Shown here: one piece after another, positions 13,560 through 32,684 of the stretch
How the letters are laid out: every line of letters begins with the position of its first letter
Position numbering within the stretch: the stretch's first letter is position 1
Notes under the pieces: model-generated
Databases searched by the model: none
What the model was told of the DNA's origin: nothing
The model's input: the letters and a program-made list of their open reading frames with translations, nothing else
Program-made: the position numbers and the translations under genes
Origin: a virus
Taxonomy: Duplodnaviria > Heunggongvirae > Uroviricota > Caudoviricetes
Virus record (IMG/VR): IMGVR_UViG_3300037423_000296
Coordinates: 11,541 to 75,540 of that record
Length of the DNA: 64,000 nucleotides
Direction: 5' to 3' (one strand)

Positions 13560-13990
13560 ACTCTCAATCGCTTAGCAAGCGCTTTCCGAGATAACGCTTT
13601 CCGTAAACAACCTTTCCGATTGAAGCGGTTGTTTGAATCTTGAGCGCAGCACATTCGAACAAATGTTCGTTCGAACAGATTTTCGAAAATTCTCAATTAG
13701 TAAAGGTCCGTTCGTTTAGTAAGTCTGAGGTTACTTAGTAAAGGTTCGTTATTAATCCCGGCGGAATTAGTAAAGAAGCCTTCTTATCTATTCGAACAAG
13801 CGTTCGATTTGGTAAGCGCTTTCCCGGTAAACGCTTTCCGACAACGATTTTCATTCCCAACTGTGGGGGCCGGGGGCCATTTACGAATGGGGCTTACGAA
13901 AGCGGGAGTTTTACGACCGGGACTTTTAAAAGCGGGAGTTACGAATTACGAATTGATTTACAAAAGAGGAAAACCCCGGCTCTTTGCCGG
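13560..13990. repeat. repeat-dense non-coding hub: CGCTTTCCG x4, TTAGTAAAGGTyCGTT x2-3, CGAACA-NN-YGTTCG palindromes x2, TTACGAA x4, AGCGGGAGTT x2
   Basis: direct reading; no ORF >=60 aa from 12780 to 13809. Confidence 0.7.
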
Positions 13991-13998
13991 GGTCTCTC

Positions 13999-14190
13999 TT
14001 AGTATCTGGGAGTCACTGATTTGATTGCACCATCTCCAGCGCCGTGATTTCCGTCAGTCAGTTGCTCAAGAGTTTGCAGCAACGTTTCACGAACGTCATC
14101 CTTGACTGCCTGAGCAGTGTTGTCGATGCCGTAACAAGAAGCCCATTCGTCCTTGTCAACCTCTACAGTGACACTGAAGATTACCTTCAT
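13999..14190 (-). CDS. hypothetical protein
   Basis: ORF track. Confidence 0.45.
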   Translation of the reverse strand: MKVIFSVTVEVDKDEWASCYGIDNTAQAVKDDVRETLLQTLEQLTDGNHGAGDGAIKSVTPRY

Positions 14191-14194
14191 TTGT

Positions 14195-14334
14195 CAGTCC
14201 TCCGAGTTACGAGTCTGGACACGAACCTCAAAGCCGCCGACATAAGTGCCAGTGTTCAGGCCTTGAGTCACCTTCCGCGCTCCGAGACGAGTGTACGTCT
14301 TACGAGCCTGCGGACGACGAACGCGCTTACCCAT
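14195..14334 (-). CDS. small basic protein (46 aa)
   Basis: manual ORF MGKRVRRPQARK.. Confidence 0.3.
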
Positions 14335-14399
14335 AGCTTACTCCTTAATACGAACTTCCAGTTGAAAATCCGGGGTTTTCCCGGCTGCTTGTGAGTACT

Positions 14400-14428
14400 A
14401 CTCTAGTGCGTGAGAGTCAGCCTGTCAA
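14400..14428 (-). promoter_or_regulatory. promoter TTGACA-N17-TAGAGT
   Basis: consensus match on minus strand. Confidence 0.55.
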
Positions 14429-14634
14429 GTCCTGATTAGATGACTTCCAGTCTTGTCTAGGTGCTTCTGGTTGATGGTCCATACGAACATGTCATAGTCA
14501 ACGTTGACAGTCACGGGCTCTTGCCTGTCCCTGAGATATACGCGGGTTGTCCCATGAGGGTCTAGCTCGTCTTCCTCAGCAAATACAATGTCGTCTGTCT
14601 CAATGAATTGAGACTTGGTTACTTGTACCTTCAT
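14425..14634 (-). CDS. hypothetical protein
   Basis: ORF track. Confidence 0.45.
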   Translation of the reverse strand: MKVQVTKSQFIETDDIVFAEEDELDPHGTTRVYLRDRQEPVTVNVDYDMFVWTINQKHLDKTGSHLIRT

Positions 14635-14887
14635 CGGCGGTCCTTGTGCTGAGCCGTGCTAATCCAGTTGAGAGAATGACGCCTGATGCTATTACCCAAT
14701 CCCTCTTCTCGGAGGGTACTCATGAGTGGCAAGAGTCCCAAGATTGAGAGTGTGGACGACCCAACGCCTCCACGCAGGAGAACACCTAGGCCTTCAGCCT
14801 CCTCGCGGGAAAGCTCCAGTGTGTAACCGCCCTTTTCGACAACGACTACCTCAGTAACGTCTTCTCGCTTTGTCAGTGTTGCCATAT
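14631..14887 (-). CDS. hypothetical protein (start at MATLTKRE)
   Basis: ORF track; longer ATG at 14909 lies inside iteron array. Confidence 0.45.
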
Positions 14888-14891
14888 TTGT

Positions 14892-14966
14892 GACCGAAAA
14901 TCCTTTCAATTATGAATGCCGACCGAAAATCTGACCGAAAATCGACCGAAATCTTGACCGAAAATC
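14892..14966. repeat. iteron-like array: 5 direct copies of GACCGAAA(A)TC, last four at about 11-12 bp spacing
   Basis: copies at 14892, 14921, 14933, 14944, 14956. Confidence 0.8.
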
Positions 14967-14984
14967 CATTTGAAATCAGATTTC

Positions 14985-15344
14985 TCACTCAATTTCAAAT
15001 TTGAGACGCTTGAGAATTTCTGAATTCCAACCCGCCGTGTATTCGTGCGTGGTGACATCGTGAGTGTTGTTATTGAAAAGGACGTGCCCCCAACCATGAA
15101 TGAATTCATCCCATCGGACCATGTACCCACATTCATCACACCAAGGCTTACGACCGTTATCTAGGTACTTTTGGTATGCCTGGTCAACATAAGGCTTACG
15201 TTCGTCCAGCAAGAGCCGGTGAATCGTCTGCCGAGTCTCCCACACCTTTTCGTCAGCGTAGAGATTGCCAGTGTGTGGACTGGGTAGATTCTCTACCTCG
15301 TTGATGAGCTTGTTTAGCAGGTTGATTGCTTCCCAGTCCTTCAC
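14985..15344 (-). CDS. hypothetical protein
   Basis: ORF track. Confidence 0.5.
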   Translation of the reverse strand: MKDWEAINLLNKLINEVENLPSPHTGNLYADEKVWETRQTIHRLLLDERKPYVDQAYQKYLDNGRKPWCDECGYMVRWDEFIHGWGHVLFNNNTHDVTTHEYTAGWNSEILKRLKFEIE

Positions 15345-15502
15345 TTGGCTTCCACCATCTCAATCTGGAAATTGTCAATGGTGAACAACTGAATAACCGG
15401 GTTGTTTCCGTCGAAGGTAATCTCCACACGCTCACCAGACGGCAAGTCAACAATTACCTTGTCGTCCTCATCGTTGATACAGCGCCGGTCGATGTTCCAC
15501 AT

Positions 15503-15700
15503 TTAGACTCCTACGAGTTGACGAGCTTCACGCTCTAGCTTCTCTACCTTTAGGGACAATGCTAGGTTCTCCTGCCGTAGCCTGTCAAGCTCAGCGAGGA
15601 CGGCAATGTGGTGCGAATCGTGCCGGGTTGTGTTGCGAACATCAACGCCACATTCGGCGCACATCTTTGCCTCTCCTACGCCAATGTAGGTAGGCTTCAT
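15503..15700 (-). CDS. hypothetical protein (CxxC, possible Zn-binding)
   Basis: ORF track. Confidence 0.4.
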   Translation of the reverse strand: MKPTYIGVGEAKMCAECGVDVRNTTRHDSHHIAVLAELDRLRQENLALSLKVEKLEREARQLVGV

Positions 15701-15909
15701 TTATACTTCACCTCTTTGTATGAAAATGGTTCGGGAACCCAGCGGACTCCCTGAATTGCATATCTAGTGTTAGGCTTGCCGTGCTGTCTAATCCAAGCTT
15801 CGGCTTCCCATTCGGTCAGGTGGTCAAGGAATACCTTAGACCAGAATGGAGTGTCAGCATTGGTCACGTATTCCCATACATGCCAGTAGCGATGAGGGTA
15901 ATTCTCCAT
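15697..15909 (-). CDS. hypothetical protein
   Basis: ORF track. Confidence 0.45.
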   Translation of the reverse strand: MENYPHRYWHVWEYVTNADTPFWSKVFLDHLTEWEAEAWIRQHGKPNTRYAIQGVRWVPEPFSYKEVKYK

Positions 15910-15911
15910 CC

Positions 15912-16136
15912 TTACTCCTTGGCCGATGGTTCGGGGTTGAGGAATAGGTCAAGATAGTCAGCAGCTTGTTCGGTGTTGCCGAGAGCCCGAATGACAACCC
16001 CGCGCTCGTGGAGAGCATCAAGCGACGGAGCAATCTCAGCCTTGAGACTGTCATCCACCTCACCAAGAAGCTTGACAGCCTTGTCAAGGGCAGCTTTTGC
16101 TCGCTCAACCTTCTGCCGGTCTGACTTCTTCATCAT
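15912..16136 (-). CDS. hypothetical protein
   Basis: ORF track. Confidence 0.45.
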   Translation of the reverse strand: MMKKSDRQKVERAKAALDKAVKLLGEVDDSLKAEIAPSLDALHERGVVIRALGNTEQAADYLDLFLNPEPSAKE

Positions 16137-16324
16137 TCCTCCGGTGGATTTCTCTCGATGTATGTTTGGATTGTCGTATAGCCACCGAGAGCACTTCTCT
16201 TTGCGAAGAATTCCATCATCCGCATGTATTCTTCGGCACCCTCAATTGGCTCTTCCATGTCCCATTCAAGGAGCATGCGCATTCGCACTCTAGCCATTAC
16301 TCTTCCGGCTTCTCGCCGGTCCAC
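16133..16324 (-). CDS. hypothetical protein
   Basis: ORF track. Confidence 0.4.
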   Translation of the reverse strand: MDRREAGRVMARVRMRMLLEWDMEEPIEGAEEYMRMMEFFAKRSALGGYTTIQTYIERNPPEE

Positions 16325-16593
16325 AATTCGTGGGCCGAAATGGTAGAAGCCTGCGGAGTCTGCCTCTGCATTGCCTCAGCTTCAATTGCCTGAGCCGCCG
16401 ATGCAAGCCCGTTGACGAATACGAATGCCTCACGCAGCGAGCGCAATTCCAAGTCCGCTCCGCTAGCCAGGTGGACAATGTATCGGTCTCCCGGCTTACG
16501 CGGGTCAAGAATCCACGAGCCAATCCGGCGCTTGTCAGCGTGCATCGTGAGAGCCCGCTCGACGGATTCCTTGCTGTAACCCTTGCCTGCCAT
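16297..16593 (-). CDS. hypothetical protein
   Basis: ORF track; RBS and promoter upstream. Confidence 0.5.
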   Translation of the reverse strand: MAGKGYSKESVERALTMHADKRRIGSWILDPRKPGDRYIVHLASGADLELRSLREAFVFVNGLASAAQAIEAEAMQRQTPQASTISAHELWTGEKPEE

Positions 16594-16628
16594 GATGTCT
16601 CCCTACCTAGTGTTCCGTTGATGTATCT

Positions 16629-16657
16629 AGACTAACAGAGTCTAGCTTGAGAGTCAA
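16629..16657 (-). promoter_or_regulatory. promoter TTGACT-N17-TAGTCT
   Basis: consensus match. Confidence 0.55.
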
Positions 16658-16828
16658 TCGTTGTCGTACGGACCAAAAGTGCGGGTGACATCGAAGGTGA
16701 AAATCCGACCTTCCTCATCCTCAACGTGAACAACGGTAGGATGAAAGGCGTCAACCCGGCAGTTGAGATTCGGGTCGTCCTCATTGAGCAGTCGGACAAT
16801 CTTGGTGGCGAGCTTGATTCTGGTCATT
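16655..16828 (-). CDS. small hypothetical protein (57 aa)
   Basis: manual ORF MTRIKLATKIV.., GGGAG RBS. Confidence 0.4.
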
Positions 16829-16839
16829 GTAACTCCCTG

Positions 16840-17130
16840 TTATCGCGGGTCTTTGTGGTATTTGTAATAGAAAGCCAGGTTCGAACGAAACCGCTCTTTG
16901 TACGAGCCGATAGCTCTCTCTAGTTCGTTCTCTGGCCCGTCAGGCAATGCCTCATCCAGCTTATTGACAATGTTTGCCATGATGGCAACTGCTTCGGCTA
17001 GGTCGGAATTCGCAACCTGCCAAGCTTTTCCCTGCTCTATTGCGTAGTCCACCTCCCAGTGAAGTCGGTTCAATGCCGAACGTGCATCGCGTGCACGGAT
17101 ATCAACTCCTACGAATTGCATCTTCGGCAT
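16840..17130 (-). CDS. hypothetical protein
   Basis: ORF track. Confidence 0.5.
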   Translation of the reverse strand: MPKMQFVGVDIRARDARSALNRLHWEVDYAIEQGKAWQVANSDLAEAVAIMANIVNKLDEALPDGPENELERAIGSYKERFRSNLAFYYKYHKDPR

Positions 17131-17143
17131 TGTGACTCCTCAG

Positions 17144-17167
17144 CTAGGGTGTATAGGTACACCCTAG
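17144..17167. repeat. perfect 10-bp hairpin ctagggtgta-tagg-tacaccctag
   Basis: read in sequence, intergenic. Confidence 0.5.
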
Positions 17168-17185
17168 CCAAGAGAGCCGGGATTG

Positions 17186-17629
17186 TCAATAGGCGGCAAC
17201 CCACCGGATTAGAAAGCGAGGGTCGAAAGAGCGAGAGCACTTGCCACAAGCCCTATTGCCACTAGGCTTACGGTGCCGCTTGATGATGTGACCATTCGGA
17301 CAAAGCCCGTGCCACTTGTAAGACACCTCTACCTTGTCAGCGCTGCAACGCTTGCCGTCACAGCCAATTGAGAGAGCCTTTCGACGCCATACCGCATCGT
17401 GGCCGTGGGAAGCTCCTACAAGCGCGTGAGCGATTTCGTGGAGCATGGTGTTTCGTACTGCCTCTTCGGTACGCTGCACCGTGAGAACCCGGCTCAGAGA
17501 GATAAGCCTGTCAGAGTGGCGGCAGCGTCCAAACCGGCTTTTGGCGTTGTCCCACTCGAATCTCCAGCCGGTCAAGCCGTGTGCGGCCATCAGCAGTTTG
17601 GCCTGTCGCTCAGCTTGGAAAAGGTCCAT
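17186..17629 (-). CDS. SprT-like zinc metalloprotease
   Basis: HEIAHAL (HExxH) followed by Cys-rich zinc ribbon (CPNGH..CGKC). Confidence 0.75.
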   Translation of the reverse strand: MDLFQAERQAKLLMAAHGLTGWRFEWDNAKSRFGRCRHSDRLISLSRVLTVQRTEEAVRNTMLHEIAHALVGASHGHDAVWRRKALSIGCDGKRCSADKVEVSYKWHGLCPNGHIIKRHRKPSGNRACGKCSRSFDPRFLIRWVAAY

Positions 17630-17696
17630 CGTCTTGCCCTTTCGGTCGATTTGCTTGGTGTAAGCTTACCAGCCTAGAGAGTGTGGGTCAAGCCCT

Positions 17697-17873
17697 AATT
17701 TGTGCGGGTACTGGGATTCGAACCCAGATATCAGTACGCTCGACATTGCTAGCATTTAGTCGAGACTAGACTGAGACTGTGCACCATCTCTGCCTAGAGA
17801 ACCATACTGCATTCGACGGAATTGCTCCCTTAGCCTTGCTCTTCACAAGCGGCTTTACCATTTGCCTATACCC
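17697..17873 (-). ncRNA. tRNA-like element (7-bp acceptor GCGGGUA/UACCCGC, D-arm, T-arm CUGGG-UUCGAAU-CCCAG) with about 100-nt insertion; identity unresolved
   Basis: manual folding; perfect acceptor pairing 177 nt apart. Confidence 0.35.
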
Positions 17874-19306
17874 GCATGAAGGGCTAGATGACCCCCGTTA
17901 AGAACCCATCTAGCCCTAGTGCTCTTCCGCACGACGGTTTGAGCAGTTAACCAATCAGGCACCTGACAAATGCTATTGGTTCTCTGTGCTTCCGGTTGTC
18001 AGCCTCACAGAGTGGGCTTATGCCTCCGTTATCTCAACCACCATTAGCACGGAAGCTACACTAATGGTGTGTAAAAGTGAAGAGAGCCAGCCGACGCATT
18101 GCATCACAGCAAAGCATTCAGTCTAAATGCCTTTCATCGTTGACTAGACGATTAAGCTCTCCCCAACTTGCGCTCCCAGCGGGAGTTGAACCCGCGCTAA
18201 TACATTGACAATGTATCGTGCTGCCGTAACACTTTGAGAGCAATCGCCGGGTTTTGTTAAGTGGCTCCCTGCTAATACCCGGCTGATTAGCAGAAATCTT
18301 GAGCCGATGAGTGAATGCGCCTACCCATTCCACAGGGCTTTAGTACGCATTCGCTAGTGGAATTCCCTAACTCGCCTTGAGCGTCGGGCTAGCCTCACCA
18401 CGTGTTTTTGTCGTTGCCATGACTAGTATTGGCTTTCCCGTCTCGCCAGACGTTCCACGCAATGAGTAACCTTTGACGTTATCGCCGGTTGCGGTCCTTG
18501 AATGCTACCCGGTAAACCGGACATCTTCACCTAACCTCACTGCCGCTCTATGCCTAAGGATGCTATTTATACTCGCATAGACGAGTGTTGAGGCGCATTA
18601 GCTGTCGTATGCTATGCGAATTGATAGGTCAGTCCGGGGCTCGTTCTACAGGTTCCAGCCTTCGCCACTTCAACCCGCTTCCACCCTAACCATTCCATTC
18701 TGGCTCTCCGCACAAGGGACTAGAACCCAAGCTCTCCTCAACGTGTCACCCCATCCGGTTAATTCCGGTCCTGCCAACCCCAGTTAAAGGCTGACTATGC
18801 TTTCCTGCTTAACGGCAGGCCTATACACTAATGGGAAGCTTATGGGGTGGACGCTAAGACCAGTGTTCTTCATTCCGGGCGTACCGGACTTCCACTTACG
18901 TCTCTTATCTAACACAAGACCCCGCAGAATTTCGAATCGGTGCCAGTTCACCCTGTGATTCTCCATTCTGACCCCGGCTTTTTCTAGCAAGCGTGACCAA
19001 GCCACCGGGGATTTGCTTTTGCTGGTGTGGGTGGCGTTTATACACTCTCCCCTAATCCGGGCGTACCCAGAAGCCACATGCCCATCTTGTCTAGTGTTAG
19101 ACCAGCAATTCGCTATTCAGTTGTCAAGGTGTTGCCTAACTTCCTTGGTTTGTATATCTTAATCTTGCCTTGATTCTCGGAGCTTGTCAAGTAGCTGTGG
19201 GAAGTTTTTCATCATCTCGGCCCACTGCTCAGACTCAGCCTTGAGACACTTGGCACACCGCTCCTCGTGCCAACCAGTAGTCTCACTACCCGGCTTGCAG
19301 TCGCAG

Positions 19307-19540
19307 TCAGTCATCCCTATACCAGTCTTTCAGGAACAGAGTCCCTACCTTGTGATACCGCCTGCCATATCGCCACTGTACTTCGCAACCGGCAGGACAT
19401 TGAAGCTTTGTTCGTGGACCAGCACCCTTGTTGGAAAGGGTTCTATGCCAAGTGGCTACAGCATGGCACTCTGGACACCTGTGAGGCTTGTCCTCGTTGC
19501 GCTTAACCCACCGCATACTGAGCCAGCTTAGCCTCTGCAA
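19307..19540 (-). CDS. hypothetical Cys-rich (zinc-finger-like) protein
   Basis: ORF track; CPEC..CPAGC. Confidence 0.4.
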   Translation of the reverse strand: MQRLSWLSMRWVKRNEDKPHRCPECHAVATWHRTLSNKGAGPRTKLQCPAGCEVQWRYGRRYHKVGTLFLKDWYRDD

Positions 19541-19698
19541 TAGCCCGCAGGCTTTGCATGTGCCAATCCATGAGGTTGTGTACGTCTTGCGGGTGCATGT
19601 TCAGCTTCTTGGCTGTCATGGTCTCAGCTTCGGTTACTTCACAACCCATGTCGTTGTGGTAATCCTCGCAAACTGGAATGTTCATGAATCCTCCATCT

Positions 19699-19935
19699 TC
19701 ATAACCAACCCCGGCTTCTCAGTCGGGCGACAGCCTCTTTCTTCGTGGGGAACTCTTCCAACTCTTCCCATTCGCCATTAGGCGTTACGGGTCGCTGAGT
19801 GATTACCCAAACGGAAGATGTGGTCTCAACATATCGCTGCTCTTTGACCGACCATCCCTCACCAAGGGAGTCAATCCTCTCGACACGGTATTGTCCGTCG
19901 TTTGTCTGATAAACCCCCGATTCAATACGCTTCAT
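19699..19935 (-). CDS. hypothetical protein
   Basis: ORF track; AGGAGGA RBS. Confidence 0.5.
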   Translation of the reverse strand: MKRIESGVYQTNDGQYRVERIDSLGEGWSVKEQRYVETTSSVWVITQRPVTPNGEWEELEEFPTKKEAVARLRSRGWL

Positions 19936-19946
19936 GGATAATCCTC

Positions 19947-26268: not shown

Positions 26269-26297
26269 AGTCTAGTCTGAGAATGTCGGCCTGTCAA
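26269..26297 (-). promoter_or_regulatory. promoter TTGACA-N17-TAGACT
   Basis: consensus match. Confidence 0.55.
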
Positions 26298-26587
26298 GCA
26301 TCGCCGTCCATCAGCTTCCGGAAGAAACGCTTGATACCCTCGCGTCGAGCAATCCGGCGAGAATGCCTGAGTTCCTGTTCGGTCAATGGGTAATCGGCAT
26401 GCCGACTCCGGTAATTCCGGTCGTCTTGGCAGAATTGGCATGGACAAATACTCTGAAAATGCTTCATTAGATTGACCCCGGCTTTCTGCGGGAGGTACTT
26501 AGCGACTTGGCGAGAGGAAACCTGATAGCCGTACCGGGGTCTTCCGATGTTTACTGTTACCAGCTTACCAGAAAACCCCGATTTCCG

Positions 26588-26779
26588 CTACTCCATTTCG
26601 TCGTCTCGGTTGTCCTTACCCAGAAGTTCTCGGAGGACGGCATTACGTCCTCGTTCCCACGCCAGAGCTTCACGATTCGACGGAGTGAACACATCGTCAG
26701 GCTGTGCCTCAAGCTCATCCAGCCGCGCCTCAGATGCTTCGAACAATTCCAATGCTCTGAGCTTGAATTCGTCAGCCAT
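26588..26779 (-). CDS. hypothetical protein (start at MADEFKL)
   Basis: ORF track trimmed; ATGA-type overlap with upstream small ORF. Confidence 0.4.
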   Translation of the reverse strand: MADEFKLRALELFEASEARLDELEAQPDDVFTPSNREALAWERGRNAVLRELLGKDNRDDEME

Positions 26780-27035
26780 TAGCGTCCTCCTGCTCATTCA
26801 TCATTTTGGCAGTCTTCTCAGCCTCTTGCTTGGTCATCAAATCAGTGGCGTATCCGAGATGAGTGTCTTGTACGTAGAAGCGTACGGGCGTGTCATTCTC
26901 CCACGGACCAAGCTCCTTCACCACGTATCTCATCCCTCGTGCTCCTCGTCCTTGACCATGGTAATCATGTAGACGATGTGGTCATCCACTTCCTCTTCGG
27001 TGCCTTCGAATTCACAGTATGGACATTTAGGCATT

Positions 27036-27383
27036 TTACCGACCTTCCTCGCAGAGGTACTGGGTCGCTCCGTCGTAAATCCGGCGACCGGCTCCAGGGT
27101 ACTGAAGCTCAGCCATGTTTGTCAACGTAGTCTCGGAGAAGCTGTGTAGCTCCCCGCAAATCTTGTAGCCGACAAACAGCAGGTTGCCGTTCGGCTCACT
27201 GTTTAGCTCAGGATTGTTCATCCTGACATAGTTGAGGTAGGCGTCGTTGAGCTTGGCGGATTCATCCGATGTGCGACCGTGAGCGGTCATCTCAGGCTCG
27301 CTCGCCTCGTGGATGGCCAGCCCTAGGCCGACGCCTGCAAGAGCCAGCACAACGGCTCCTACGGCCAGCCACCAGCGCTTCAT
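27036..27383 (-). CDS. secreted/membrane-anchored protein (signal peptide)
   Basis: MKRWWLAVGAVVLALAGVGLGLA. Confidence 0.5.
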   Translation of the reverse strand: MKRWWLAVGAVVLALAGVGLGLAIHEASEPEMTAHGRTSDESAKLNDAYLNYVRMNNPELNSEPNGNLLFVGYKICGELHSFSETTLTNMAELQYPGAGRRIYDGATQYLCEEGR

Positions 27384-27694
27384 GACGCGCTCAACTCCCA
27401 GCCAGGGAAGTAAGCAATCAGACCGTCGCCCAGCGGGTCAATCTGAAGGTGAGCGCCGAGCAGACCAGCGTCGTCAGGATTGACGTAATCGGAGCGAGTG
27501 TGGTTCCAGTCCATCTCCCGATACATGGAATCACCGCCCAGCTTCACAAGAAAGCTACCGAGTTCTCCGAAGGTGTCGAATTGAATTCCGAAACCCGGCT
27601 CCAAGTGGGGCTTGATGTGGCTTTTGTAGGACAGGTAGAAATCTCCCGCGTGAACCGCAGCGTTCCGAATGTCCTTGCCAGTGATGGTCAGCAT
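27380..27694 (-). CDS. paralog family A member 1 (C-terminal YFPGWEL)
   Basis: shared FGI(Q/E)FD and (V/A)YFPGW(T/E)L motifs with two neighbours. Confidence 0.5.
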   Translation of the reverse strand: MLTITGKDIRNAAVHAGDFYLSYKSHIKPHLEPGFGIQFDTFGELGSFLVKLGGDSMYREMDWNHTRSDYVNPDDAGLLGAHLQIDPLGDGLIAYFPGWELSAS

Positions 27695-27739
27695 GTTATC
27701 TCCTTCTACTAATTGTTACGGTGTGTTACTGCTACTGAA

Positions 27740-27768
27740 AGTCTAACCTAGGGTCAGACTAATGTCCA
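27740..27768 (-). promoter_or_regulatory. promoter TGGACA-N17-TAGACT
   Basis: consensus match. Confidence 0.5.
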
Positions 27769-28080
27769 GCCAGGGAAGTATACAACCGTGTGAGAAGTAA
27801 GGGCACTCATCCTTCCGGCACGGGCAAGCTCAAAAGCCCTCTCGCTGGTCAGAGACTCGTCGTCATTGTCATCAGCGTATTGGTCCATAACCCCGCCCTC
27901 AATGCCAAGAGACGTGAAGAATGCAAATACGTGCGACATGGCGTCGAACTCGATTCCGAAGCCCTCTGGCAAATCCCACCCGCCACGGTAAGCCGGGACA
28001 ATTGCGTCCTCGCCTTCGAATACATTCGCGGCTTCCAGCGCGGCCAGAACTTCCTTGCGACTGATGACCTTCTCCATCAT
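27754..28080 (-). CDS. paralog family A member 2 (C-terminal VYFPGWTLV)
   Basis: see member 1. Confidence 0.5.
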   Translation of the reverse strand: MMEKVISRKEVLAALEAANVFEGEDAIVPAYRGGWDLPEGFGIEFDAMSHVFAFFTSLGIEGGVMDQYADDNDDESLTSERAFELARAGRMSALTSHTVVYFPGWTLV

Positions 28081-28109
28081 GACTCCTTAGCTTGAGATTG
28101 TGGCTTCAC

Positions 28110-28361
28110 CTACACCATAATCAGGACAACTGTCCAGTACTTCTCCGTGCCACCCCATGCACCTCTCGGCACTGATTCGGCAATTGCGTTCATGCCCTGT
28201 TTCTGCAAACGTCGAGCTTCCCGGCGAGCTTCAATTTGTGACATCGGTCGGCCCAATGGACACTCTGGCAAATGAGCCTGCGTAACCCTCGCAAAACAAA
28301 CCGGGCATTCTGGGAAATAAACATTTGCCTCATCGTTCGGAATCATCGTCGCTCTCCGCAT
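28110..28361 (-). CDS. hypothetical Cys-rich protein
   Basis: ORF track; CPVC..CPLG. Confidence 0.4.
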   Translation of the reverse strand: MRRATMIPNDEANVYFPECPVCFARVTQAHLPECPLGRPMSQIEARREARRLQKQGMNAIAESVPRGAWGGTEKYWTVVLIMV

Positions 28362-28683
28362 CCAATAGCCTGATGTAAGCGCATCCGACAGAATGAGTCA
28401 TCGTCTTGGCACCCTTACCCACCTTCGGAGTGAGTTTGAATTTCGCGCCACAGGCTGGACAATCCTCGCCTCGTGCAATTGCTTCAAACCACTCGTCCAA
28501 TGGATTGGAGACATTGCCAGTAATGTCCAGCGGGTCACCATCGGCCTTGAGAGCCCAGCGGCGAAGCTGATGGGGAATGCCGGTCATCCCTTCGACAACC
28601 GGCTTTCCAGCCTCATCGTAGCCCAGCAATTTGACTCTCGGCGTATCGAGCACTTGTCGCTGTTGCTTAGTGAGCTTGTTCAT
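28330..28683 (-). CDS. hypothetical protein with CPACG / C..C motifs
   Basis: ORF track. Confidence 0.5.
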   Translation of the reverse strand: MNKLTKQQRQVLDTPRVKLLGYDEAGKPVVEGMTGIPHQLRRWALKADGDPLDITGNVSNPLDEWFEAIARGEDCPACGAKFKLTPKVGKGAKTMTHSVGCAYIRLLDAESDDDSER

Positions 28684-28994
28684 CAGTAGAGAGTCCAGCC
28701 CTTGAAGTACACCGTCAACTTTTCGGGGGTGTATTCCAGAGAAGCATCGTCAGCGAGCCCCTGAGCCTTCTCATCCTCGTAGTTGTACGTCTCACCGGTA
28801 CCGAGAACATATCCAGCCTCTCGACCCATCTGAGTAAAGAACCGAGCCACCTGAGCGAAGTTCTCAAAGTCAATGCAGAGGCAATCTCTCACGCCATCCT
28901 TGTTGACAATCTCGTAGGGGTTCAGGTTCGAAGAGCCCCCGGCCTTGTTCAAAGCGTAAACCACGCTGTCTCGGTCAATCTTGTTCAACGGCAT
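28683..28994 (-). CDS. paralog family A member 3 (C-terminal VYFKGWTLY)
   Basis: trimmed from ORF 28683..29111 to MPLNKIDRD; GGGAGG RBS. Confidence 0.5.
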   Translation of the reverse strand: MPLNKIDRDSVVYALNKAGGSSNLNPYEIVNKDGVRDCLCIDFENFAQVARFFTQMGREAGYVLGTGETYNYEDEKAQGLADDASLEYTPEKLTVYFKGWTLY

Positions 28995-29029
28995 GATGTC
29001 CTCCCCTAGCTCGTGATTGTTACAGGTAA

Positions 29030-29070
29030 AGCCTAACAAGAAAAGAGCCGGGGCACAATGGCCCCGGCTC
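29030..29070 (-). terminator. intrinsic terminator (gagccggggc/gccccggctc stem followed by U-run on minus strand)
   Basis: read in sequence downstream of 29077..30075. Confidence 0.65.
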
Positions 29071-29076
29071 AATTTC

Positions 29077-30075
29077 TTAGACAGCCGCCAGGAAGCGCTG
29101 CCAGACTGCATTCCGGCTGTCGTTGGTCACGTTGTCGAAACCAGCGCCAGCGGCAAACAGGTTCTCGTCCTTACCGGCGCGAACCTCACGGAACCACTGC
29201 TGGTGCTCAGTGACAGCGTTGAGACCCTTCCAGACCGTGTTGTCAAGGTTGCCCATGGACTCCGTACCGTTGCTCCAAATGGTCTCCAGAGCGTCAACCT
29301 TGAATTCCCACTTGCTCATCCGGCCACGGGTGTTGTCCTCAGGCTTCGGGTAAATGTCCTCAACAATCTTGAGGAAAGCGTCCTTGGTCATCTCGGCCTC
29401 AATCATGGCCTTGGCCTCAGCCTCAAAGGCGTCGTCGTAAGCCTGAGCGAATCCAAGGGCGGCCTGAGCGTCGGCCAGCTTGGTCTCCATACCCTGAGTG
29501 TGACGAATGCGGAATTCGTCTCCACGCTCGCCCAGAGCCACGTTGAGGGTGTTCTGACAAACAACCCTCACGTTCGTCTTCTTGGCAATCAGGGTGCCGG
29601 AACCATCGTGCGAGGAGGTCAGCATCAGATAGCGCTTGATGACATCCTTGGAACCCTTCGGGTCCAGCACGATATCGTTGGTCTCAACCAGCGTGGCAAA
29701 TACCTGAGCACCACCCTTGATAGAACCGGCAGTCTCCCAGCGGCGACGGCCATTCGTGAGCTTGTCTCCGAAGTCGAAAATCGACTCGTTGGAGAAGATG
29801 TTGTAACGCTTGCCAACCGTGCCCAGAACATCCTTCTGGCCCTTCTTGAAGGGGTTGTCACGGATGACGAGCTTGGCTTCCTTGGCAAAGTTGTAGTGCG
29901 GAAGCTCTTCCTTCAGGTCAAGGAAGCGAATGTTCCAACCGTGAAGGTGAGCGAGCTTGAGCATTTCCTCAGTGGAAACCGGCTTGTCGAAGACGGTACC
30001 GAGTCGGTGCCAGGCGGGCTCACGCAGGGAAGCGAAAGCAGCCAGGTCGCCGTAGGTCTCGATTCCTGCGGGCAT
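29077..30075 (-). CDS. hypothetical protein, 332 aa, likely highly expressed (own promoter, AGGAGGA RBS, terminator); function unknown
   Basis: ORF track; regulatory context. Confidence 0.65.
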   Translation of the reverse strand: MPAGIETYGDLAAFASLREPAWHRLGTVFDKPVSTEEMLKLAHLHGWNIRFLDLKEELPHYNFAKEAKLVIRDNPFKKGQKDVLGTVGKRYNIFSNESIFDFGDKLTNGRRRWETAGSIKGGAQVFATLVETNDIVLDPKGSKDVIKRYLMLTSSHDGSGTLIAKKTNVRVVCQNTLNVALGERGDEFRIRHTQGMETKLADAQAALGFAQAYDDAFEAEAKAMIEAEMTKDAFLKIVEDIYPKPEDNTRGRMSKWEFKVDALETIWSNGTESMGNLDNTVWKGLNAVTEHQQWFREVRAGKDENLFAAGAGFDNVTNDSRNAVWQRFLAAV

Positions 30076-30112
30076 TATGTCCTCCTAGTGTCTGTTTGAC
30101 TTGGTACCTAGT

Positions 30113-30141
30113 ACTCTACCGGAGTCTACCTAGACTGTCAA
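30113..30141 (-). promoter_or_regulatory. promoter TTGACA-N17-TAGAGT
   Basis: perfect -35, consensus -10. Confidence 0.6.
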
Positions 30142-30169
30142 GCACCCAGCCTAGGTAGACTTTGTGGCC

Positions 30170-30409
30170 TCAGTCACTCAGGGTGAGCCGACGATACTCC
30201 ACCTCTGCCTCGCGGACAGCCTGAAAGAATGCCTCAATTTCGCGGGGTTCATCCGTGAATGCGTCCACGAAATCATCAGCAGTCTGGACTTTTGTCAAGA
30301 TGACAGAGACGTAGGGCTTCCGAATTCCACCACTGATATTGTGCTCCTTTACGGTGACATCAATATCAATATTTTCGTGCCCGTAGGCATCCTCGAATTC
30401 AGCAGCCAT
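30170..30409 (-). CDS. paralog pair B member 1
   Basis: shares C-terminal (E/A)FF(Q/R)xV(R/E)EA..Y(R/Y)RL motif with neighbour. Confidence 0.5.
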   Translation of the reverse strand: MAAEFEDAYGHENIDIDVTVKEHNISGGIRKPYVSVILTKVQTADDFVDAFTDEPREIEAFFQAVREAEVEYRRLTLSD

Positions 30410-30627
30410 TACTTGTCAGCCTTGAGACGGTAGTAATCCTTCTTGGCCTCTTCGACTTGCCGGAAGAACTCTTCGATGTCCTCGTGACTGTCCGTCTGAA
30501 ACTCGATGGTCTTCCCGTCGTCACTCTCGAAAATCACCGCCATGAACAGGGTCTCATCTACCTCGCAGGTAATGTCGAATCGAACCTGTTCGCTGCCGTA
30601 ATTGACATTCTCCAGAAATGCGGTCAT
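30409..30627 (-). CDS. paralog pair B member 2
   Basis: see member 1. Confidence 0.5.
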   Translation of the reverse strand: MTAFLENVNYGSEQVRFDITCEVDETLFMAVIFESDDGKTIEFQTDSHEDIEEFFRQVEEAKKDYYRLKADK

Positions 30628-30636
30628 CGCTACCTC

Positions 30637-30984
30637 CTACATCTTGAACTGGTCGAGCGTATCCTTCAGGCGCATTGCATCTCTGGCAACATCGTCTTGA
30701 TAAACCCCGTGCTCCCACTGAGACGCATAGTGCTTGATGATGCCAATAGCAATACCAAGAATCCGCCGACGCATTTCATTGCCGCCTTCTACGGCAAGCA
30801 GGTAGGCAAATGACGAAGTATCGAATGACATCTTATCCAGAAGTCCTACAAGGGTGCGTGCAGCCTTGCCTTCTGGAGTCCTGTAGTTGGTTGTACCTCT
30901 GTCGTAATGTGCGGAGCTTGGGATGTCTGGCTGGTTAATACCTCCACCACCATAGCCACCGAATTGAAAAGACCTTCCACTCAT
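30637..30984 (-). CDS. hypothetical protein (Gly-rich N-terminus)
   Basis: ORF track. Confidence 0.5.
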   Translation of the reverse strand: MSGRSFQFGGYGGGGINQPDIPSSAHYDRGTTNYRTPEGKAARTLVGLLDKMSFDTSSFAYLLAVEGGNEMRRRILGIAIGIIKHYASQWEHGVYQDDVARDAMRLKDTLDQFKM

Positions 30985-30997
30985 TCAGTACCCCGAT

Positions 30998-31579
30998 TCA
31001 GTTGTCGTCGCTGACGGAAACTCCACCCTCAGGCCATCCCTTTCGGACTCCCCAAGAGCCGTTCACCTTAGCGTGCCACTTCTTCCCAGTCTTGTCAATG
31101 AAGTGCGTGAAACCCTCGCTGTCAGGAAACTCGCTCACAACCCTGAGAGTCATGCCCTGCGGGTTGCAGACGAAGTTACCGAAGGCGAACACCTTCTCGT
31201 ACCACGAAAGCGGCGGGTGAGTCGGCTTACCATCCTCGCCAAGCTTGACAGCGTTGGACGGCTTACCCTCAACGATGACAGCCTCACGACTATTGTTCGG
31301 GGTTGAAGCCTTGCGAATCCGCTTCGGGCCACTTTCAGCCCGCTCCTGCGCCGCAAGAACGTGCGCCGGAAGCTTAAAGACGACACCCTCAGACTCAGCC
31401 TTGGCAATAGCCTCCTTGGCAGCAGGACTCATTCGGCCCCGGCCCATCTTGGCAAGTCCGAGACTCGCGGCATACTCACGCGCAGTCATCTCCGAACGCT
31501 TGTCCATAGTTGCAGTAAGCACTTTCTCTCCTTCAGTAGGTTGTGTCTCAACCCTAACAGACTCAAGTTTGGGAGTCAA
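30998..31579 (-). CDS. protein with Lsr2-type C-terminal-domain-like DNA-binding motif (REYAASLGLAKMGRGRMSPAAKEAIAKA) near N-terminus
   Basis: spacing-identical match to REWARKNGYDINARGRIPFSVMDAFTKA of the Lsr2 at 62317. Confidence 0.55.
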   Translation of the reverse strand: MTPKLESVRVETQPTEGEKVLTATMDKRSEMTAREYAASLGLAKMGRGRMSPAAKEAIAKAESEGVVFKLPAHVLAAQERAESGPKRIRKASTPNNSREAVIVEGKPSNAVKLGEDGKPTHPPLSWYEKVFAFGNFVCNPQGMTLRVVSEFPDSEGFTHFIDKTGKKWHAKVNGSWGVRKGWPEGGVSVSDDN

Positions 31580-31732
31580 GAGCTAGCTCAAAAGAATCCC
31601 GGCGATTATCGCGAGTGCAACAATCGTAAGGATACCTAAACAGCTACCACATCCGCCAGTGTTAAGAGGCAGGGTATCTCTGATTTCCCCCGCCTCTATC
31701 CGGTCGTCTCTTGTCAGAGACCGGTAAAGCAG

Positions 31733-31978
31733 TCACCGAATGGCGACGGCAAGCTCCCGAGCGGTAGCCTTCGGCAGGCGACCCTTCGACGGAACCTCCA
31801 GACCCAGGAAGTCGCCCAGTTCGCGAGCGGTCTTCGGCTGAGTCACAAGGTAGTCAGCGATGACATCTACGGAAACCCGCCCAATGCTGCCGACAGCCTT
31901 TCCAGCCTCACGAGCGTGCTCACGAGCCGCGTTCGCGATGTTGGAGGTGTCCAGTACGAGAGTAGTGTACTTAGCCAT
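31733..31978 (-). CDS. hypothetical protein
   Basis: ORF track. Confidence 0.5.
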   Translation of the reverse strand: MAKYTTLVLDTSNIANAAREHAREAGKAVGSIGRVSVDVIADYLVTQPKTARELGDFLGLEVPSKGRLPKATARELAVAIR

Positions 31979-32030
31979 TTCAGTTTCTCCTTCTTGTTCC
32001 GGTTGTGGGCTTGTTGCCCCGTTGAGTAAG

Positions 32031-32060
32031 ACTCTAGGGCCAGACTGTCTAGCTTGTCAA
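32031..32060 (-). promoter_or_regulatory. promoter TTGACA-N18-TAGAGT
   Basis: consensus match. Confidence 0.5.
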
Positions 32061-32074
32061 CCCTACTTCCCGAA

Positions 32075-32380
32075 TTAGTTTTGGGCAGTTGCCGGAAGGT
32101 AGTAGATGTCGTTGCCTACAAGGTAGGCAGCCTGAGCCTCAGTCACAGGCTGACGAGTCTGGACATCCACATACTTACCGATAGAGCAGACGTAACGAAG
32201 CCGGTTCCACCGTGACACCTCCGCGTGAGGACGGATAACCTTCTCCGTCGCCTCTGTCACGACTCCCCGCAACTTCCCATTGATTGCTACGTCCTGTAGA
32301 ACCACAGTCTTTACCTTGACAACCTTACCCTTGATGTTGAGAGCAAGTCCATCACTGGTTTGATTCACTGCACCACGCAT
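32075..32380 (-). CDS. hypothetical protein
   Basis: ORF track; AGGAGGA RBS. Confidence 0.5.
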   Translation of the reverse strand: MRGAVNQTSDGLALNIKGKVVKVKTVVLQDVAINGKLRGVVTEATEKVIRPHAEVSRWNRLRYVCSIGKYVDVQTRQPVTEAQAAYLVGNDIYYLPATAQN

Positions 32381-32424
32381 TTACGTATCCTCCTGGGGGT
32401 TGGAGCTAATTAACTTGTAGCCAG

Positions 32425-32453
32425 ACACTATCGGTAACTCTCGTGCCTGTCAA
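32425..32453 (-). promoter_or_regulatory. promoter TTGACA-N17-TAGTGT
   Basis: consensus match. Confidence 0.55.
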
Positions 32454-32510
32454 CTCTGTGTGTCTGATTAGTCGCTACTTATCTCGGTGTAATTTCGTAC
32501 TGAGTCTACT

Positions 32511-32684
32511 CGAAAGTGCGTTCGAGTGCAATCTTTCAAACGATTGATTCAATCGAACGTTTGTTCGAATACCTCGCGGGGCTGTCGAACAGGTGTTCGG
32601 TTGCTCGCGGGCACCCGAAACCAATTTTTGCCCTTTACGAAAGGGTCCAAAAGTGTACGGGACTTTTTCGCCCTTTACGAAAGG
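32511..32684. promoter_or_regulatory. regulatory region with CGAAMR-NN-YGTTCG palindromes (32511, 32554, 32586) and two CCCTTTACGAAAGG hairpin motifs 40 bp apart (32631, 32671)
   Basis: direct reading. Confidence 0.6.

What the first reader, a model, noticed from the sequence alone, without database searches (positions are those of the whole stretch)
13656..32599. Shared palindromic operator-like motif CGAAMR-NN-YGTTCG in two distant regulatory regions
Copies: 13656 cgaacaaatgttcg, 13793 cgaacaagcgttcg, 32511 cgaaagtgcgttcg, 32554 cgaacgtttgttcg, 32586 cgaacaggtgttcg. All are intergenic, often extended to TTCGAAC. This 6-2-6 palindrome looks like a dimeric regulator site reused at two control regions, upstream of gene 32075..32380 and in the 13100-14000 hub.
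Basis: seen in the sequence. Interest (0 to 1): 0.6.

Follow-up and report, generated by a model that had tools for sequence, protein, structure and literature searches.

The report
Host LexA (SOS) boxes in actinophage
Six copies of a 16-bp palindrome that matches the DNA-damage repressor (LexA) binding site of actinobacteria sit in two non-coding control regions of a large uncultivated Streptomyces-type phage, so the phage probably reads, or exploits, its host's SOS state.

Summary
All five listed copies are at the stated coordinates, and there is a sixth at 13672. The 16-bp form TCGAAC-N4-GTTCGA gives 7 sites with at most one mismatch against 0.13 expected, and 6 of the 7 lie in the two regions.

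The motif is the experimentally defined actinobacterial LexA SOS box: tCGAAC-N4-GNNCGa in S. venezuelae and TCGAAC(N4)GTTCGA in M. tuberculosis. It includes the actinobacteria-specific T and the R/Y spacer ends.

The window is a large phage distantly related to Streptomyces phages of the Stanwilliamsviridae. It encodes SsgA-, WhiB- and Lsr2-like proteins, 31-32 tRNAs and a tmRNA.

In relatives whose flanking protein is 69-88% identical, the arms of the boxes are kept while the N4 spacers and the flanks change.

The promoter-proximal box of region 2 fills the 17-nt spacer of a conserved second promoter (P2). The other boxes overlap no recognisable promoter. Region 1 lies in an ORF-free repeat hub.

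No LexA-like or HTH protein was found among 142 window ORFs.

Best reading: these are host LexA sites that tie two phage control regions to the SOS response. LexA binding and its effect are inferred, not shown. This is a new member of a known kind, of moderate interest.

The parts
13655..13670 (.). Box R1a, TCGAACAAATGTTCGT (1 mismatch to TCGAAC-N4-GTTCGA). Left member of a tandem pair in 16-bp register.
   Evidence: kept in L021 and L015
13671..13686 (.). Box R1b, TCGAACAGATTTTCGA (1 mismatch). Right member of the tandem pair. It is a perfect box (TCGAACATGCGTTCGA) in relative L021.
13792..13807 (.). Box R1c, TCGAACAAGCGTTCGA (perfect). In L021 all four spacer bases differ while the arms are intact.
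13687..13791 (.). AT-rich core (35-38% GC) between the tandem pair and box R1c. It holds 3-4 TTAGTAAAG repeats.
13572..13608 (-). Left flanking CGGAAAGCG-type repeats (3 copies read on the - strand).
13809..13845 (-). Right flanking CGGAAAGCG-type repeats (2 copies).
13880..13939 (-). Two 30-nt repeats carrying TCCCG...TCGTAA(A) elements, just after the terminator.
13970..13996 (-). Intrinsic terminator that ends the early-gene block before the hub.
12780..13960 (.). ORF-free hub that contains region 1. No sigma-70-like promoter was found in it. Its left part is rich in ACAGGC repeats.
32510..32525 (.). Box R2-proximal, TCGAAAGTGCGTTCGA (1 mismatch). It fills the spacer of promoter P2.
32553..32568 (.). 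Box R2-middle, TCGAACGTTTGTTCGA (perfect). It decays in more distant relatives.
32585..32600 (.). Box R2-distal, TCGAACAGGTGTTCGG (1 mismatch). Both arms are invariant in 5 of 5 related phages.
32503..32531 (-). Predicted promoter P2, TTGCAC-17-TAGACT. A promoter is present at the same distance in L008, L010 and L011.
   Evidence: sequence
32425..32453 (-). Predicted promoter P1, TTGACA-17-TAGTGT, conserved in all 5 relatives.
32625..32704 (-). Two 40-nt repeats, AAAGTCCCGT-N10-GACCTTTCGTAAAGG, each a hairpin with TTCGTAAA in or at the loop. They lie upstream of the boxes on the - strand.
32075..32380 (-). First gene downstream of region 2: 101 aa, confident all-beta model, no known fold or family.
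31733..31978 (-). Next gene downstream, a small Lsr2-like DNA-binding protein with its own TTGACA promoter at 32060-32031.

Best explanation
The six palindromes are binding sites for the host's LexA repressor, that is, actinobacterial-type SOS boxes carried by a large phage of a Streptomyces-like host. In an undamaged cell, LexA dimers would occupy all six. In region 2 the promoter-proximal box lies between the -35 and -10 of an upstream promoter (P2). LexA would therefore silence P2 and leave only the constitutive promoter P1 to drive the 101-aa gene and the Lsr2-like genes behind it. The middle box and the strictly conserved distal box would add LexA occupancy just after the hairpins that end the upstream operon. 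In region 1, a tandem pair and a single box flank an AT-rich repeat core in an ORF-free hub, so whatever that hub does would also be gated by LexA. When DNA damage activates RecA and LexA cleaves itself, both regions are freed together. Shown here: the motif, its enrichment, its identity with the published LexA consensus, the actinobacterial affiliation of the phage, and the conservation of the arms. Inferred: that LexA binds these sites, that P2 is a real promoter repressed by LexA, and that the hub has an SOS-gated function.
For: 1. Motif identity. Each box matches TCGAAC-N4-GTTCGA with 0-1 mismatch. This is the consensus found by ChIP-seq and SPR for S. venezuelae LexA (tCGAAC-N4-GNNCGa, PMC9380542) and by mutagenesis and ChIP-seq for M. 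tuberculosis (TCGAAC(N4)GTTCGA, PMC3381160). The leading T is the actinobacteria-specific form of the half-site, and the general Gram-positive consensus is CGAACRNRYGTTYC (PMC2248561). All 6 window boxes and all 7 boxes read in relatives have R after CGAAC and Y before GTTCG. The phage boxes are closer to the palindromic consensus than most validated host boxes in Table 1 of PMC9380542.
2. Enrichment. 7 sites with at most one mismatch against 0.13 expected, 6 of them within about 250 bp of non-coding DNA.
3. Host clade. The rIIA-like, SprT-like and 101-aa proteins have their closest named homologues in Streptomyces phages. The window encodes SsgA-, WhiB- and Lsr2-like proteins. It carries 27 promoters of the TTGACA-N17-TAGNNT type.
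4. Conservation. In five phages whose 101-aa protein is 69-100% identical, the distal box has 12 invariant columns in an alignment where only 26% of columns are invariant, and its spacer takes five forms: ACCT, AGGT, GCCT, GGCT, GATT. In the hub of L021 (SprT 84% identical) all three boxes persist. One has 4 of 4 spacer bases changed, one improves to a perfect match, and indels of 10 and 11 nt trim both sides of the tandem pair without touching it.
5. Geometry. The proximal box fills the 17-nt spacer of TTGCAC-17-TAGACT. A TTGNNN-17/18-TANNNT promoter sits at -146 to -151 in 4 of 5 relatives. Box positions of -145 to -220 from the ATG fall within or near the range of validated S. venezuelae boxes (-14 to -199; recA -162).
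6. No rival binder found. None of 142 window ORFs hits LexA_DNA_bind, Peptidase_S24 or any HTH family at E<=1e-3.
7. Precedent. The same tandem arrangement (CGAAC-N4-GTTCG-NN-CGAAC-N4-GTTCG) recurs in many IMG/VR contigs, including Gordonia phage Marietta. Host LexA controls the upstream one of two tandem promoters in phage GIL01 through adjacent boxes (PMC4551915).
Against: Only one of the six boxes overlaps a predicted promoter, and that promoter is a consensus match, not a mapped start site. The best-conserved box (distal, region 2) and all three hub boxes overlap no recognisable sigma-70 promoter on either strand. A simple operator role is therefore not demonstrated for five of the six. 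More distant Streptomyces phages with the same synteny (BillNye, Blueeyedbeauty, contig L024) have no such box in either equivalent region. The sites are thus a feature of one sub-lineage, not of the family. In Blueeyedbeauty the equivalent hub carries a different repeat (GTTGAAYGTTSAAC), which is the pattern expected if hub repeats co-evolve with a phage protein. The host is inferred, not known. Only about half of the genome is in the window, so a phage-encoded binder elsewhere cannot be excluded. Most window ORFs have no detectable family at all.
Confidence: 0.6

Rival explanations
1. The boxes are operators for a phage-encoded dimeric DNA-binding protein that happens to share, or has evolved to share, LexA's specificity. 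It could be a small novel-fold regulator, or a LexA-like protein encoded outside the window. The two regions would then be controlled by a phage timer, not by the host SOS state.
For: The boxes occur only in one sub-lineage. The equivalent hub of Blueeyedbeauty has a different repeated palindrome or iteron (GTTGAAYGTTSAAC), as expected when sites co-evolve with a phage protein. Most boxes do not sit on host-type promoters. Most of the roughly 170 small ORFs have no family, so an unrecognised DNA-binding protein is possible. Only about half of a genome of roughly 130 kb is visible.
Against: No HTH, LexA_DNA_bind or S24 domain in 142 ORFs. A 12-of-12 match to the host LexA consensus, including the clade-specific T and the R/Y spacer ends, at six sites and in every relative examined, is hard to obtain by coincidence. 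Whatever else binds, sequences this close to consensus should be bound by LexA in an actinobacterial cell, because weaker host sites are bound tightly in vitro.
Confidence: 0.2
2. The boxes, at least those of region 1, are structural parts of a replication origin, partition site or packaging site. In this view the hub core is a nested, roughly symmetric repeat module around an AT-rich segment. The palindromes would serve as initiator or cruciform elements, or would recruit LexA as an architectural or licensing factor and not as a transcriptional repressor.
For: Hub layout: CGGAAAGCG repeats, tandem box, 105-nt AT-rich core with TTAGTAAAG repeats, single box, CGGAAAGCG repeats. No promoter was found in the hub. 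The equivalent ORF-free hubs of Blueeyedbeauty and L024, and a nearby region of BillNye, carry clusters of perfect DnaA-box 9-mers, which suggests these hubs recruit host replication-related proteins.
Against: The same boxes also occur upstream of an ordinary gene with two promoters (region 2), where the origin reading adds nothing. No replication-initiator gene was identified next to the hub. There is no GC-skew inflection at the hub. An origin role for any of these hubs is untested.
Confidence: 0.12
3. The similarity is a by-product of an old duplication, or of chance palindromes in repeat-rich intergenic DNA, and has no shared function.
For: Both regions also share other short repeats, such as TTCGTAAA hairpins and CGGGACTTTT.
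Against: blastn-short finds no similarity between the regions apart from the boxes themselves. The six spacers all differ. Enrichment is more than 50-fold. The arms are conserved across relatives while flanks diverge. TTCGTAAA is a separate element found in many intergenic gaps.
Confidence: 0.03

Closest known systems
Actinobacterial LexA SOS box (S. venezuelae tCGAAC-N4-GNNCGa; M. tuberculosis TCGAAC(N4)GTTCGA)
   Same: Same 16-bp imperfect palindrome, same half-site with the actinobacteria-specific T, and same R/Y spacer ends. Positions relative to start codons are comparable. Several boxes per regulatory region also occur at host lexA and dnaE2.
   Different: Here the boxes are on a phage genome of about 50% GC. 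They are closer to the perfect palindrome than most host sites. They are clustered three per region, and most do not overlap a recognisable promoter.
Bacillus thuringiensis tectivirus GIL01: host LexA at dinBox1/dinBox1b of promoter P1
   Same: A phage uses the host LexA, not a repressor of its own, through adjacent Cheo-type boxes at the upstream member of a pair of tandem promoters (PMC4551915).
   Different: GIL01 is a small temperate linear plasmid-prophage of a Firmicute. LexA there maintains lysogeny and needs the phage co-factor gp7, and the boxes lie just downstream of the start site. The present phage belongs to a group of large phages with many host-type early promoters, and no lysogeny function was seen in the window. 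No gp7 analogue was looked for. A second box cluster sits in an ORF-free hub.
Tandem Cheo-type double boxes in other (pro)phage contigs, e.g. Gordonia phage Marietta (NC_055763), intergenic between genes 77 and 78
   Same: Identical register: two 14-mers separated by 2 nt (16 bp centre to centre), TCGAAC type, in non-coding DNA of an actinobacteriophage.
   Different: Unrelated phage family (Zierdtviridae). One double box lies in a divergent promoter region. As far as my literature searches went, these sites have not been described or tested.
ORF-free hubs of related Streptomyces phages (Blueeyedbeauty, BillNye, metagenomic contig L024)
   Same: Same synteny: the early-gene block ends at a terminator, followed by TCGTAAA(GG) hairpin repeats, a repeat-rich ORF-free stretch of 1-1.5 kb, and then a block of small genes.
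   Different: Those hubs carry no LexA-type box. They have DnaA-box 9-mers (TTATCCACA / TGTGGATAA, 2-4 copies) and other repeats. The window hub has no DnaA box.

Membership tests
LexA SOS box, actinobacterial type | 16-bp imperfect palindrome TCGAAC-N4-GTTCGA (core GAAC-N4-GTTC) | tested here: met
   Six sites with 0-1 mismatch. Consensus taken from PMC9380542 and PMC3381160.
LexA SOS box, actinobacterial type | Clade-specific details: T before CGAAC (Actinobacteria) and purine/pyrimidine at the spacer ends (CGAACRNRYGTTYC) | tested here: met
   Leading T in 6 of 6, trailing A in 4 of 6. R...Y at the spacer ends in 6 of 6 window boxes and 7 of 7 boxes in relatives. Reference: PMC2248561.
LexA SOS box, actinobacterial type | The element resides in a cell that has a LexA of this specificity (actinobacterial host) | tested here: inconclusive
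   The host is not known. Closest named relatives are Streptomyces phages. SsgA-, WhiB- and Lsr2-like genes and TTGACA-N17-TAGNNT promoters point to an actinomycete.
LexA SOS box, actinobacterial type | Position that can affect transcription (overlapping or next to a promoter) | tested here: inconclusive
   The proximal box of region 2 fills the spacer of predicted P2. The five other boxes overlap no predicted sigma-70 promoter. No start sites have been mapped.
LexA SOS box, actinobacterial type | Purifying selection on the arms but not on the spacer | tested here: met
   Distal box: 12 invariant columns against a 26% background, with five spacer variants. In the hub, one box has 4 of 4 spacer changes with intact arms.
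LexA SOS box, actinobacterial type | Physical binding by LexA and release on RecA-stimulated cleavage | not testable with these tools
   Needs EMSA, SPR or ChIP, and expression data with and without DNA damage.
GIL01-type LexA-governed phage switch | Temperate or carrier life style in which LexA keeps lytic genes off, with a phage co-factor (gp7) that stabilises LexA | not tested
   No integrase or repressor-type family appears in the Pfam summary of 142 ORFs, but only about half of the genome is in the window. No gp7 analogue was searched for.
Operator of a phage-encoded repressor | A cognate phage DNA-binding protein encoded in the genome, usually nearby | tested here: not met
   No HTH, LexA_DNA_bind or S24 hit among 142 ORFs. 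Flanking genes have no family or fold match. The rest of the genome is unseen.
Phage or plasmid replication origin with iterons | AT-rich unwinding segment flanked by repeated initiator sites, usually next to an initiator gene | tested here: inconclusive
   Region 1 has an AT-rich core flanked by nested repeats. No initiator gene was identified and there is no skew signal. Region 2 does not fit this description.

The most novel reading that the evidence does not exclude
In this lineage of large actinophages the LexA boxes are not ordinary operators. On this reading, the ORF-free hub is a module that recruits host proteins, with DnaA boxes in sister genera and LexA boxes here. The two high-affinity clusters, which bracket the 18.6-kb block of early genes, would then use LexA in one of two ways. 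LexA could act as an architectural or licensing factor for replication or genome-end functions. Alternatively, once the phage DNA is amplified, the sites could act as a sponge that titrates LexA and switches on the host SOS regulon (RecA, repair polymerases) for the phage's benefit.
Probability: 0.12. Interest if true: 0.75.

Novelty: new member of a known kind. Interest (0 to 1): 0.45.

Why it matters
Use of the host LexA by phages is well documented for temperate phages of Proteobacteria and Firmicutes. My literature searches found no description of LexA boxes in actinobacteriophages, and one genome-wide scan of Streptomyces tectiviruses reported none (PMC6950372). Here a lineage of large, probably virulent Streptomyces-type phages keeps near-perfect SOS boxes at two control regions. 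A quick scan shows the same tandem design in Gordonia phages and many uncultivated viral contigs.

If LexA does bind, these phages sense or manipulate the DNA-damage state of hosts that live among producers of genotoxic antibiotics. That would bear on phage-host dynamics in soil and on the design of SOS-responsive parts for Streptomyces. The finding also gives a concrete, cheap experiment: LexA binding to six 23-bp oligonucleotides.

Tried and rejected
- DNA similarity: megablast and blastn of both regions against 50,697 phage records gave no match.
- Relatives through IMG/VR with the 101-aa protein: none found.
- Near-identical metagenome contigs L001-L005 and L015-L019 are 97-100% identical, so they say little about conservation.
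- The protein just after the hub (84 aa) has only one distant homologue, and it lies in an unrelated context (L014).
- Hypothesis that the two regions mark the ends of a long terminal repeat: rejected as a general rule. The repeat in BillNye is 2.26 kb and starts inside its hub. The repeat in Blueeyedbeauty is only about 0.8 kb and lies 5 kb beyond its hub.
- DnaA boxes in the window hub: none.
- Sigma-70-type promoter over the hub boxes or over the distal and middle boxes: none found on either strand by scan or by eye.
- Known RNA family in the hub: none, even at E<=1. The fold z-score is only -2.2.
- Wider paralogy between the two regions: none beyond the boxes.
- The TTCGTAAA hairpins shared by both regions turned out to be a separate element that is common in the window's intergenic DNA.
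- From memory, I compared other actinobacterial regulators with palindromic sites (Rex, DasR, HrcA/CIRCE, NrdR, IdeR). None has CGAAC/GTTCG arms. This was not tested with tools.

Full report
**1. The observation**

The pattern CGAAMRNNYGTTCG occurs at 13656, 13793, 32511, 32554 and 32586, exactly as listed. It also occurs at 13672-13685, where it matches on the minus strand (CGAACAGATTTTCG on the plus strand). Counting both strands there are 10 matches against 0.06 expected from dinucleotide-preserving shuffles. The strict CGAAC-N4-GTTCG has four exact copies in 64 kb, all in these two places.

Read with one more base on each side, the six sites are:
- TCGAACAAATGTTCGT
- TCGAACAGATTTTCGA
- TCGAACAAGCGTTCGA
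- TCGAAAGTGCGTTCGA
- TCGAACGTTTGTTCGA
- TCGAACAGGTGTTCGG

That is TCGAAC-N4-GTTCGA with no mismatch or one. In 300 first-order Markov simulations of the window, the number of sites with at most one mismatch averaged 0.13 and never exceeded 2. Seven are observed. The seventh (21526) lies inside a coding ORF. The six sites lie in DNA without credible ORFs.

The two regions share nothing else except short elements described in section 6. A sensitive blastn between them aligns only the boxes. The six spacers all differ, so this is not a recent duplication.

**2. What the window is**

From about 6.1 kb onward the genes are small and on the minus strand. There are 31-32 tRNA genes and a tmRNA. There are 27 exact matches to TTGACA-N16-19-TANNNT, all on the minus strand, against 1.8 expected. 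Most have a TAGNNT -10 element.

No phage record matches at the DNA level. Three proteins have their best named matches in Streptomyces phages of the Stanwilliamsviridae: BillNye, Blueeyedbeauty, Phredrick and others, with genomes of about 127-131 kb.
- The rIIA-like protein is 36% identical.
- The SprT-like protease is up to 70% identical.
- The 101-aa protein next to region 2 is 33-41% identical.

Gene order is shared with these phages: 101-aa gene, Lsr2-like genes, DUF932, poly(A) polymerase-like, SprT, ORF-free hub, block of small genes, then ThyX on the other strand. The window also encodes SsgA-like, WhiB-like and Lsr2-like proteins. I conclude that this is an uncultivated large phage of a Streptomyces-like actinomycete. 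The host itself is inferred.

**3. What the motif is**

The LexA operator of S. venezuelae, defined by ChIP-seq, MEME and SPR, is tCGAAC-N4-GNNCGa (PMC9380542). That of M. tuberculosis is TCGAAC(N4)GTTCGA (PMC3381160). The general Gram-positive consensus is CGAACRNRYGTTYC. The half-site TCGAACA is specific to Actinobacteria, whereas Firmicutes have TACGAAC (PMC2248561).

The phage sites carry the leading T in 6 of 6. They have a purine after CGAAC and a pyrimidine before GTTCG in 6 of 6, as do all seven boxes read in relatives. They are nearer to the full palindrome than most validated host boxes, many of which have only one good half-site (Table 1 of PMC9380542). On sequence grounds these are high-affinity actinobacterial SOS boxes.

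**4. Conservation**

Homologues of the 101-aa protein (65-88% identical) led to four syntenic metagenomic contigs: L008 (88%), L010 (77%), L011 (74%) and L013 (69%). Only 26% of columns are invariant in the alignment of the intergenic region upstream of that gene.

Even so, the distal box has 12 invariant columns (CGAAC and TGTTCGA) in all five sequences. Its spacer reads ACCT, AGGT, GCCT, GGCT or GATT, and its flanks are not conserved. The middle and proximal boxes are kept in L008 and decay in the more distant contigs.

For region 1, a contig with an 84%-identical SprT (L021) has the same hub and all three boxes:
- One box has all four spacer bases changed (GCTT to AAAC).
- One improves from one mismatch to a perfect match.
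- Deletions of 10 and 11 nt remove DNA on both sides of the tandem pair but leave the pair intact.

A 97%-identical strain (L015) keeps the three boxes and has lost one TTAGTAAAG repeat between them.

More distant Streptomyces phages (BillNye, Blueeyedbeauty, contig L024) have no such box in either equivalent region. The boxes therefore belong to one sub-lineage, within which they are under selection.

**5. Anatomy and likely mechanism: region 2**

Read on the minus strand, region 2 has the following order:
1. The end of a 56-aa ORF.
2. Two 40-nt repeats, each a small hairpin (AAAGTCCCGT-N10-GACCTTTCGTAAAGG).
3. The distal box.
4. 17 nt.
5. The middle box.
6. 27 nt containing a conserved TTGAATCAA.
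7. The proximal box.
8. Promoter P1 (TTGACA-17-TAGTGT, 32453-32425).
9. A ribosome-binding site and the ATG at 32380.

The proximal box is preceded directly by TTGCAC and followed, after one base, by TAGACT. It therefore occupies the 17-nt spacer of a second promoter, P2 (32531-32503). A TTGNNN-17/18-TANNNT promoter lies at the same distance from the ATG (-146 to -151) in L008, L010 and L011. This is the classical geometry for repression.

The arrangement recalls phage GIL01, where host LexA controls the upstream one of two tandem promoters through adjacent boxes (PMC4551915). The boxes start at -145, -188 and -220 from the ATG, within or near the range of validated S. venezuelae sites (-14 to -199; recA -162).

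I could find no promoter over the distal or middle box on either strand. Their role is inferred. They may raise local LexA occupancy, block read-through from the upstream operon, or do something else.

**6. Anatomy: region 1**

The block of early genes ends at a canonical terminator (13996-13970, minus strand). After it comes a 1.2-kb ORF-free hub. Its first 400 nt, read on the minus strand, run as follows:
1. TCCCG...TCGTAA(A) repeats.
2. A GC-rich patch.
3. CGGAAAGCG repeats.
4. The single box.
5. A 105-nt AT-rich core (35-38% GC) with three or four CTTTACTAA repeats (TTAGTAAAG on the plus strand).
6. The tandem pair.
7. CGGAAAGCG repeats.

Beyond these lie about 800 nt rich in ACAGGC. No sigma-70-like promoter is predicted in the hub, and no Rfam family matches even at E<=1.

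The nested, roughly symmetric layout around an AT-rich core resembles an origin or a partition or packaging site. I keep that as a rival for region 1. The hubs of Blueeyedbeauty and L024, and a nearby region of BillNye, hold 2-4 perfect DnaA-box 9-mers. The window hub holds none. That contrast is what suggests the more novel reading: these hubs may recruit host DNA-binding proteins, with LexA in the place of DnaA here.

I first suspected that the hub marks the start of a long terminal repeat. That holds for BillNye but not for Blueeyedbeauty, so I dropped it as a general explanation.

**7. Who binds**

A Pfam scan of 142 window ORFs of at least 57 aa gave no LexA_DNA_bind, no Peptidase_S24 and no helix-turn-helix family at E<=1e-3. 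The genes flanking both regions have no informative family. The 101-aa protein gives a confident all-beta model (pLDDT 90) with no neighbour in the PDB.

This does not exclude an unrecognised phage regulator or one encoded outside the window. It does leave the host LexA as the only identified protein with this specificity.

**8. Elsewhere**

In nearly half of them the second box is also complete, so they carry the same 16-bp-register double box as 13656-13685. Given the 15-base match, chance would complete the second box in about one case in a thousand.

One group of these contigs is Gordonia phage Marietta and its relatives. There the double box lies in a 660-bp divergent intergenic region. 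Full-text searches found no paper describing LexA boxes in actinobacteriophages. A study of Streptomyces tectiviruses scanned for them and found none.

**9. Verdict**

What is shown:
- the motif and its enrichment;
- its identity with the published operator;
- the phage's actinobacterial affiliation;
- selection on the box arms;
- the fit of one box into a conserved predicted promoter.

What is inferred:
- LexA binding;
- repression of P2;
- any function of the hub cluster.

This is a new member of a known kind: phage DNA carrying host SOS boxes. Two features are unusual. The phage belongs to a group of large phages with no lysogeny function seen in the window. Five of the six boxes are not at recognisable promoters. 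I score interest at 0.45. I give 0.12 probability to the reading in which LexA acts as an architectural factor, a licensing factor or a target of titration at a hub that recruits host proteins, and 0.75 interest if that reading is true.

Noticed in passing
window 18533-18586 (-): Rfam match to the Pistol self-cleaving ribozyme (RF02679), 37.9 bits against a gathering score of 34.5, in an apparently ORF-poor stretch near tRNA-Asp (18170-18241).
   Followed up: no
window 40217-62166 (-) and 54712-55109 (-): An array of about 31 tRNA genes plus a tmRNA whose predicted tag (ATDNIDAEYEALCAEYDLASV) looks unusual to me. I did not compare it with host tags.
   Followed up: no
window 63442-63939 (-), at the right edge: An ORF with a strong Ro60 vWA domain match (PF25045, 7.6e-45). 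It is probably the C-terminal part of a Ro60/Rsr-like gene that starts beyond the window, next to the tRNA array. No Y RNA was reported by Rfam.
   Followed up: partly
window, e.g. 32634-32641, 32674-32681, 33601-33608, 34775-34782, 43199-43206 (-): TTCGTAAA is enriched (13 copies against 1.8 expected, 11 on the coding strand). It usually sits in or at the loop of a short hairpin whose stem sequence varies, in intergenic gaps. The same TTTCGTAAAGG element lies upstream of the 101-aa homologue in BillNye and Blueeyedbeauty. Its function is unknown.
   Followed up: partly
window 14400-63084 (-): 27 exact TTGACA-N16-19-TANNNT promoters, all on the minus strand (1.8 expected), mostly with a TAGNNT -10. 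None lies between 6000 and 14400 or between 32453 and 40911, so those gene blocks may use another promoter class.
   Followed up: partly
window 13040-13511 (-): ACAGGC occurs 8 times in the left part of the hub, out of 31 minus-strand copies in the whole window. This part has no ORF, no promoter match and no Rfam match. Its RNA fold z-score is -2.2.
   Followed up: partly
L020 23483 and 23738; L024 17035, 17047, 17238; L006 19632-19911: Clusters of perfect DnaA-box 9-mers (TTATCCACA / TGTGGATAA) in the ORF-free hubs of Streptomyces phage Blueeyedbeauty and contig L024, and in a short region of BillNye. This hints at host DnaA recruitment. Blueeyedbeauty also has GTTGAAYGTTSAAC repeats in its hub.
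   Followed up: partly
L026-L144 (IMG/VR); L145 = Gordonia phage Marietta 55243-55272: The double box CGAAC-N4-GTTCG-NN-CGAAC-N4-GTTCG (16-bp register) recurs in many viral contigs of 27-70% GC. These include about 60 Gordonia phage records that match the query spanning the Marietta double box. I found no publication on it.
   Followed up: partly
window 6129-6144 and 6158-6195: A symmetric weak relative of the box (TCGAAAATGCTTTCGA, both arms with A/T at the sixth position) in the convergent gap where the coding strand switches. It is followed by a long bidirectional terminator-like hairpin.
   Followed up: no
window 32075-32380 (-): The 101-aa protein, conserved in this phage lineage and distantly in Streptomyces phages, gives a confident all-beta AlphaFold model (pLDDT 90, pTM 0.80). 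It has no structural neighbour in the PDB and no Pfam or PHROG family.
   Followed up: yes
L016-L019 (JGI contigs): Four short metagenome contigs identical to the window all break inside or just before the hub, at window positions of about 14035, 13975, 13888 and 13860. This suggests an assembly problem there, such as a repeat, strain variation or a genome end.
   Followed up: no
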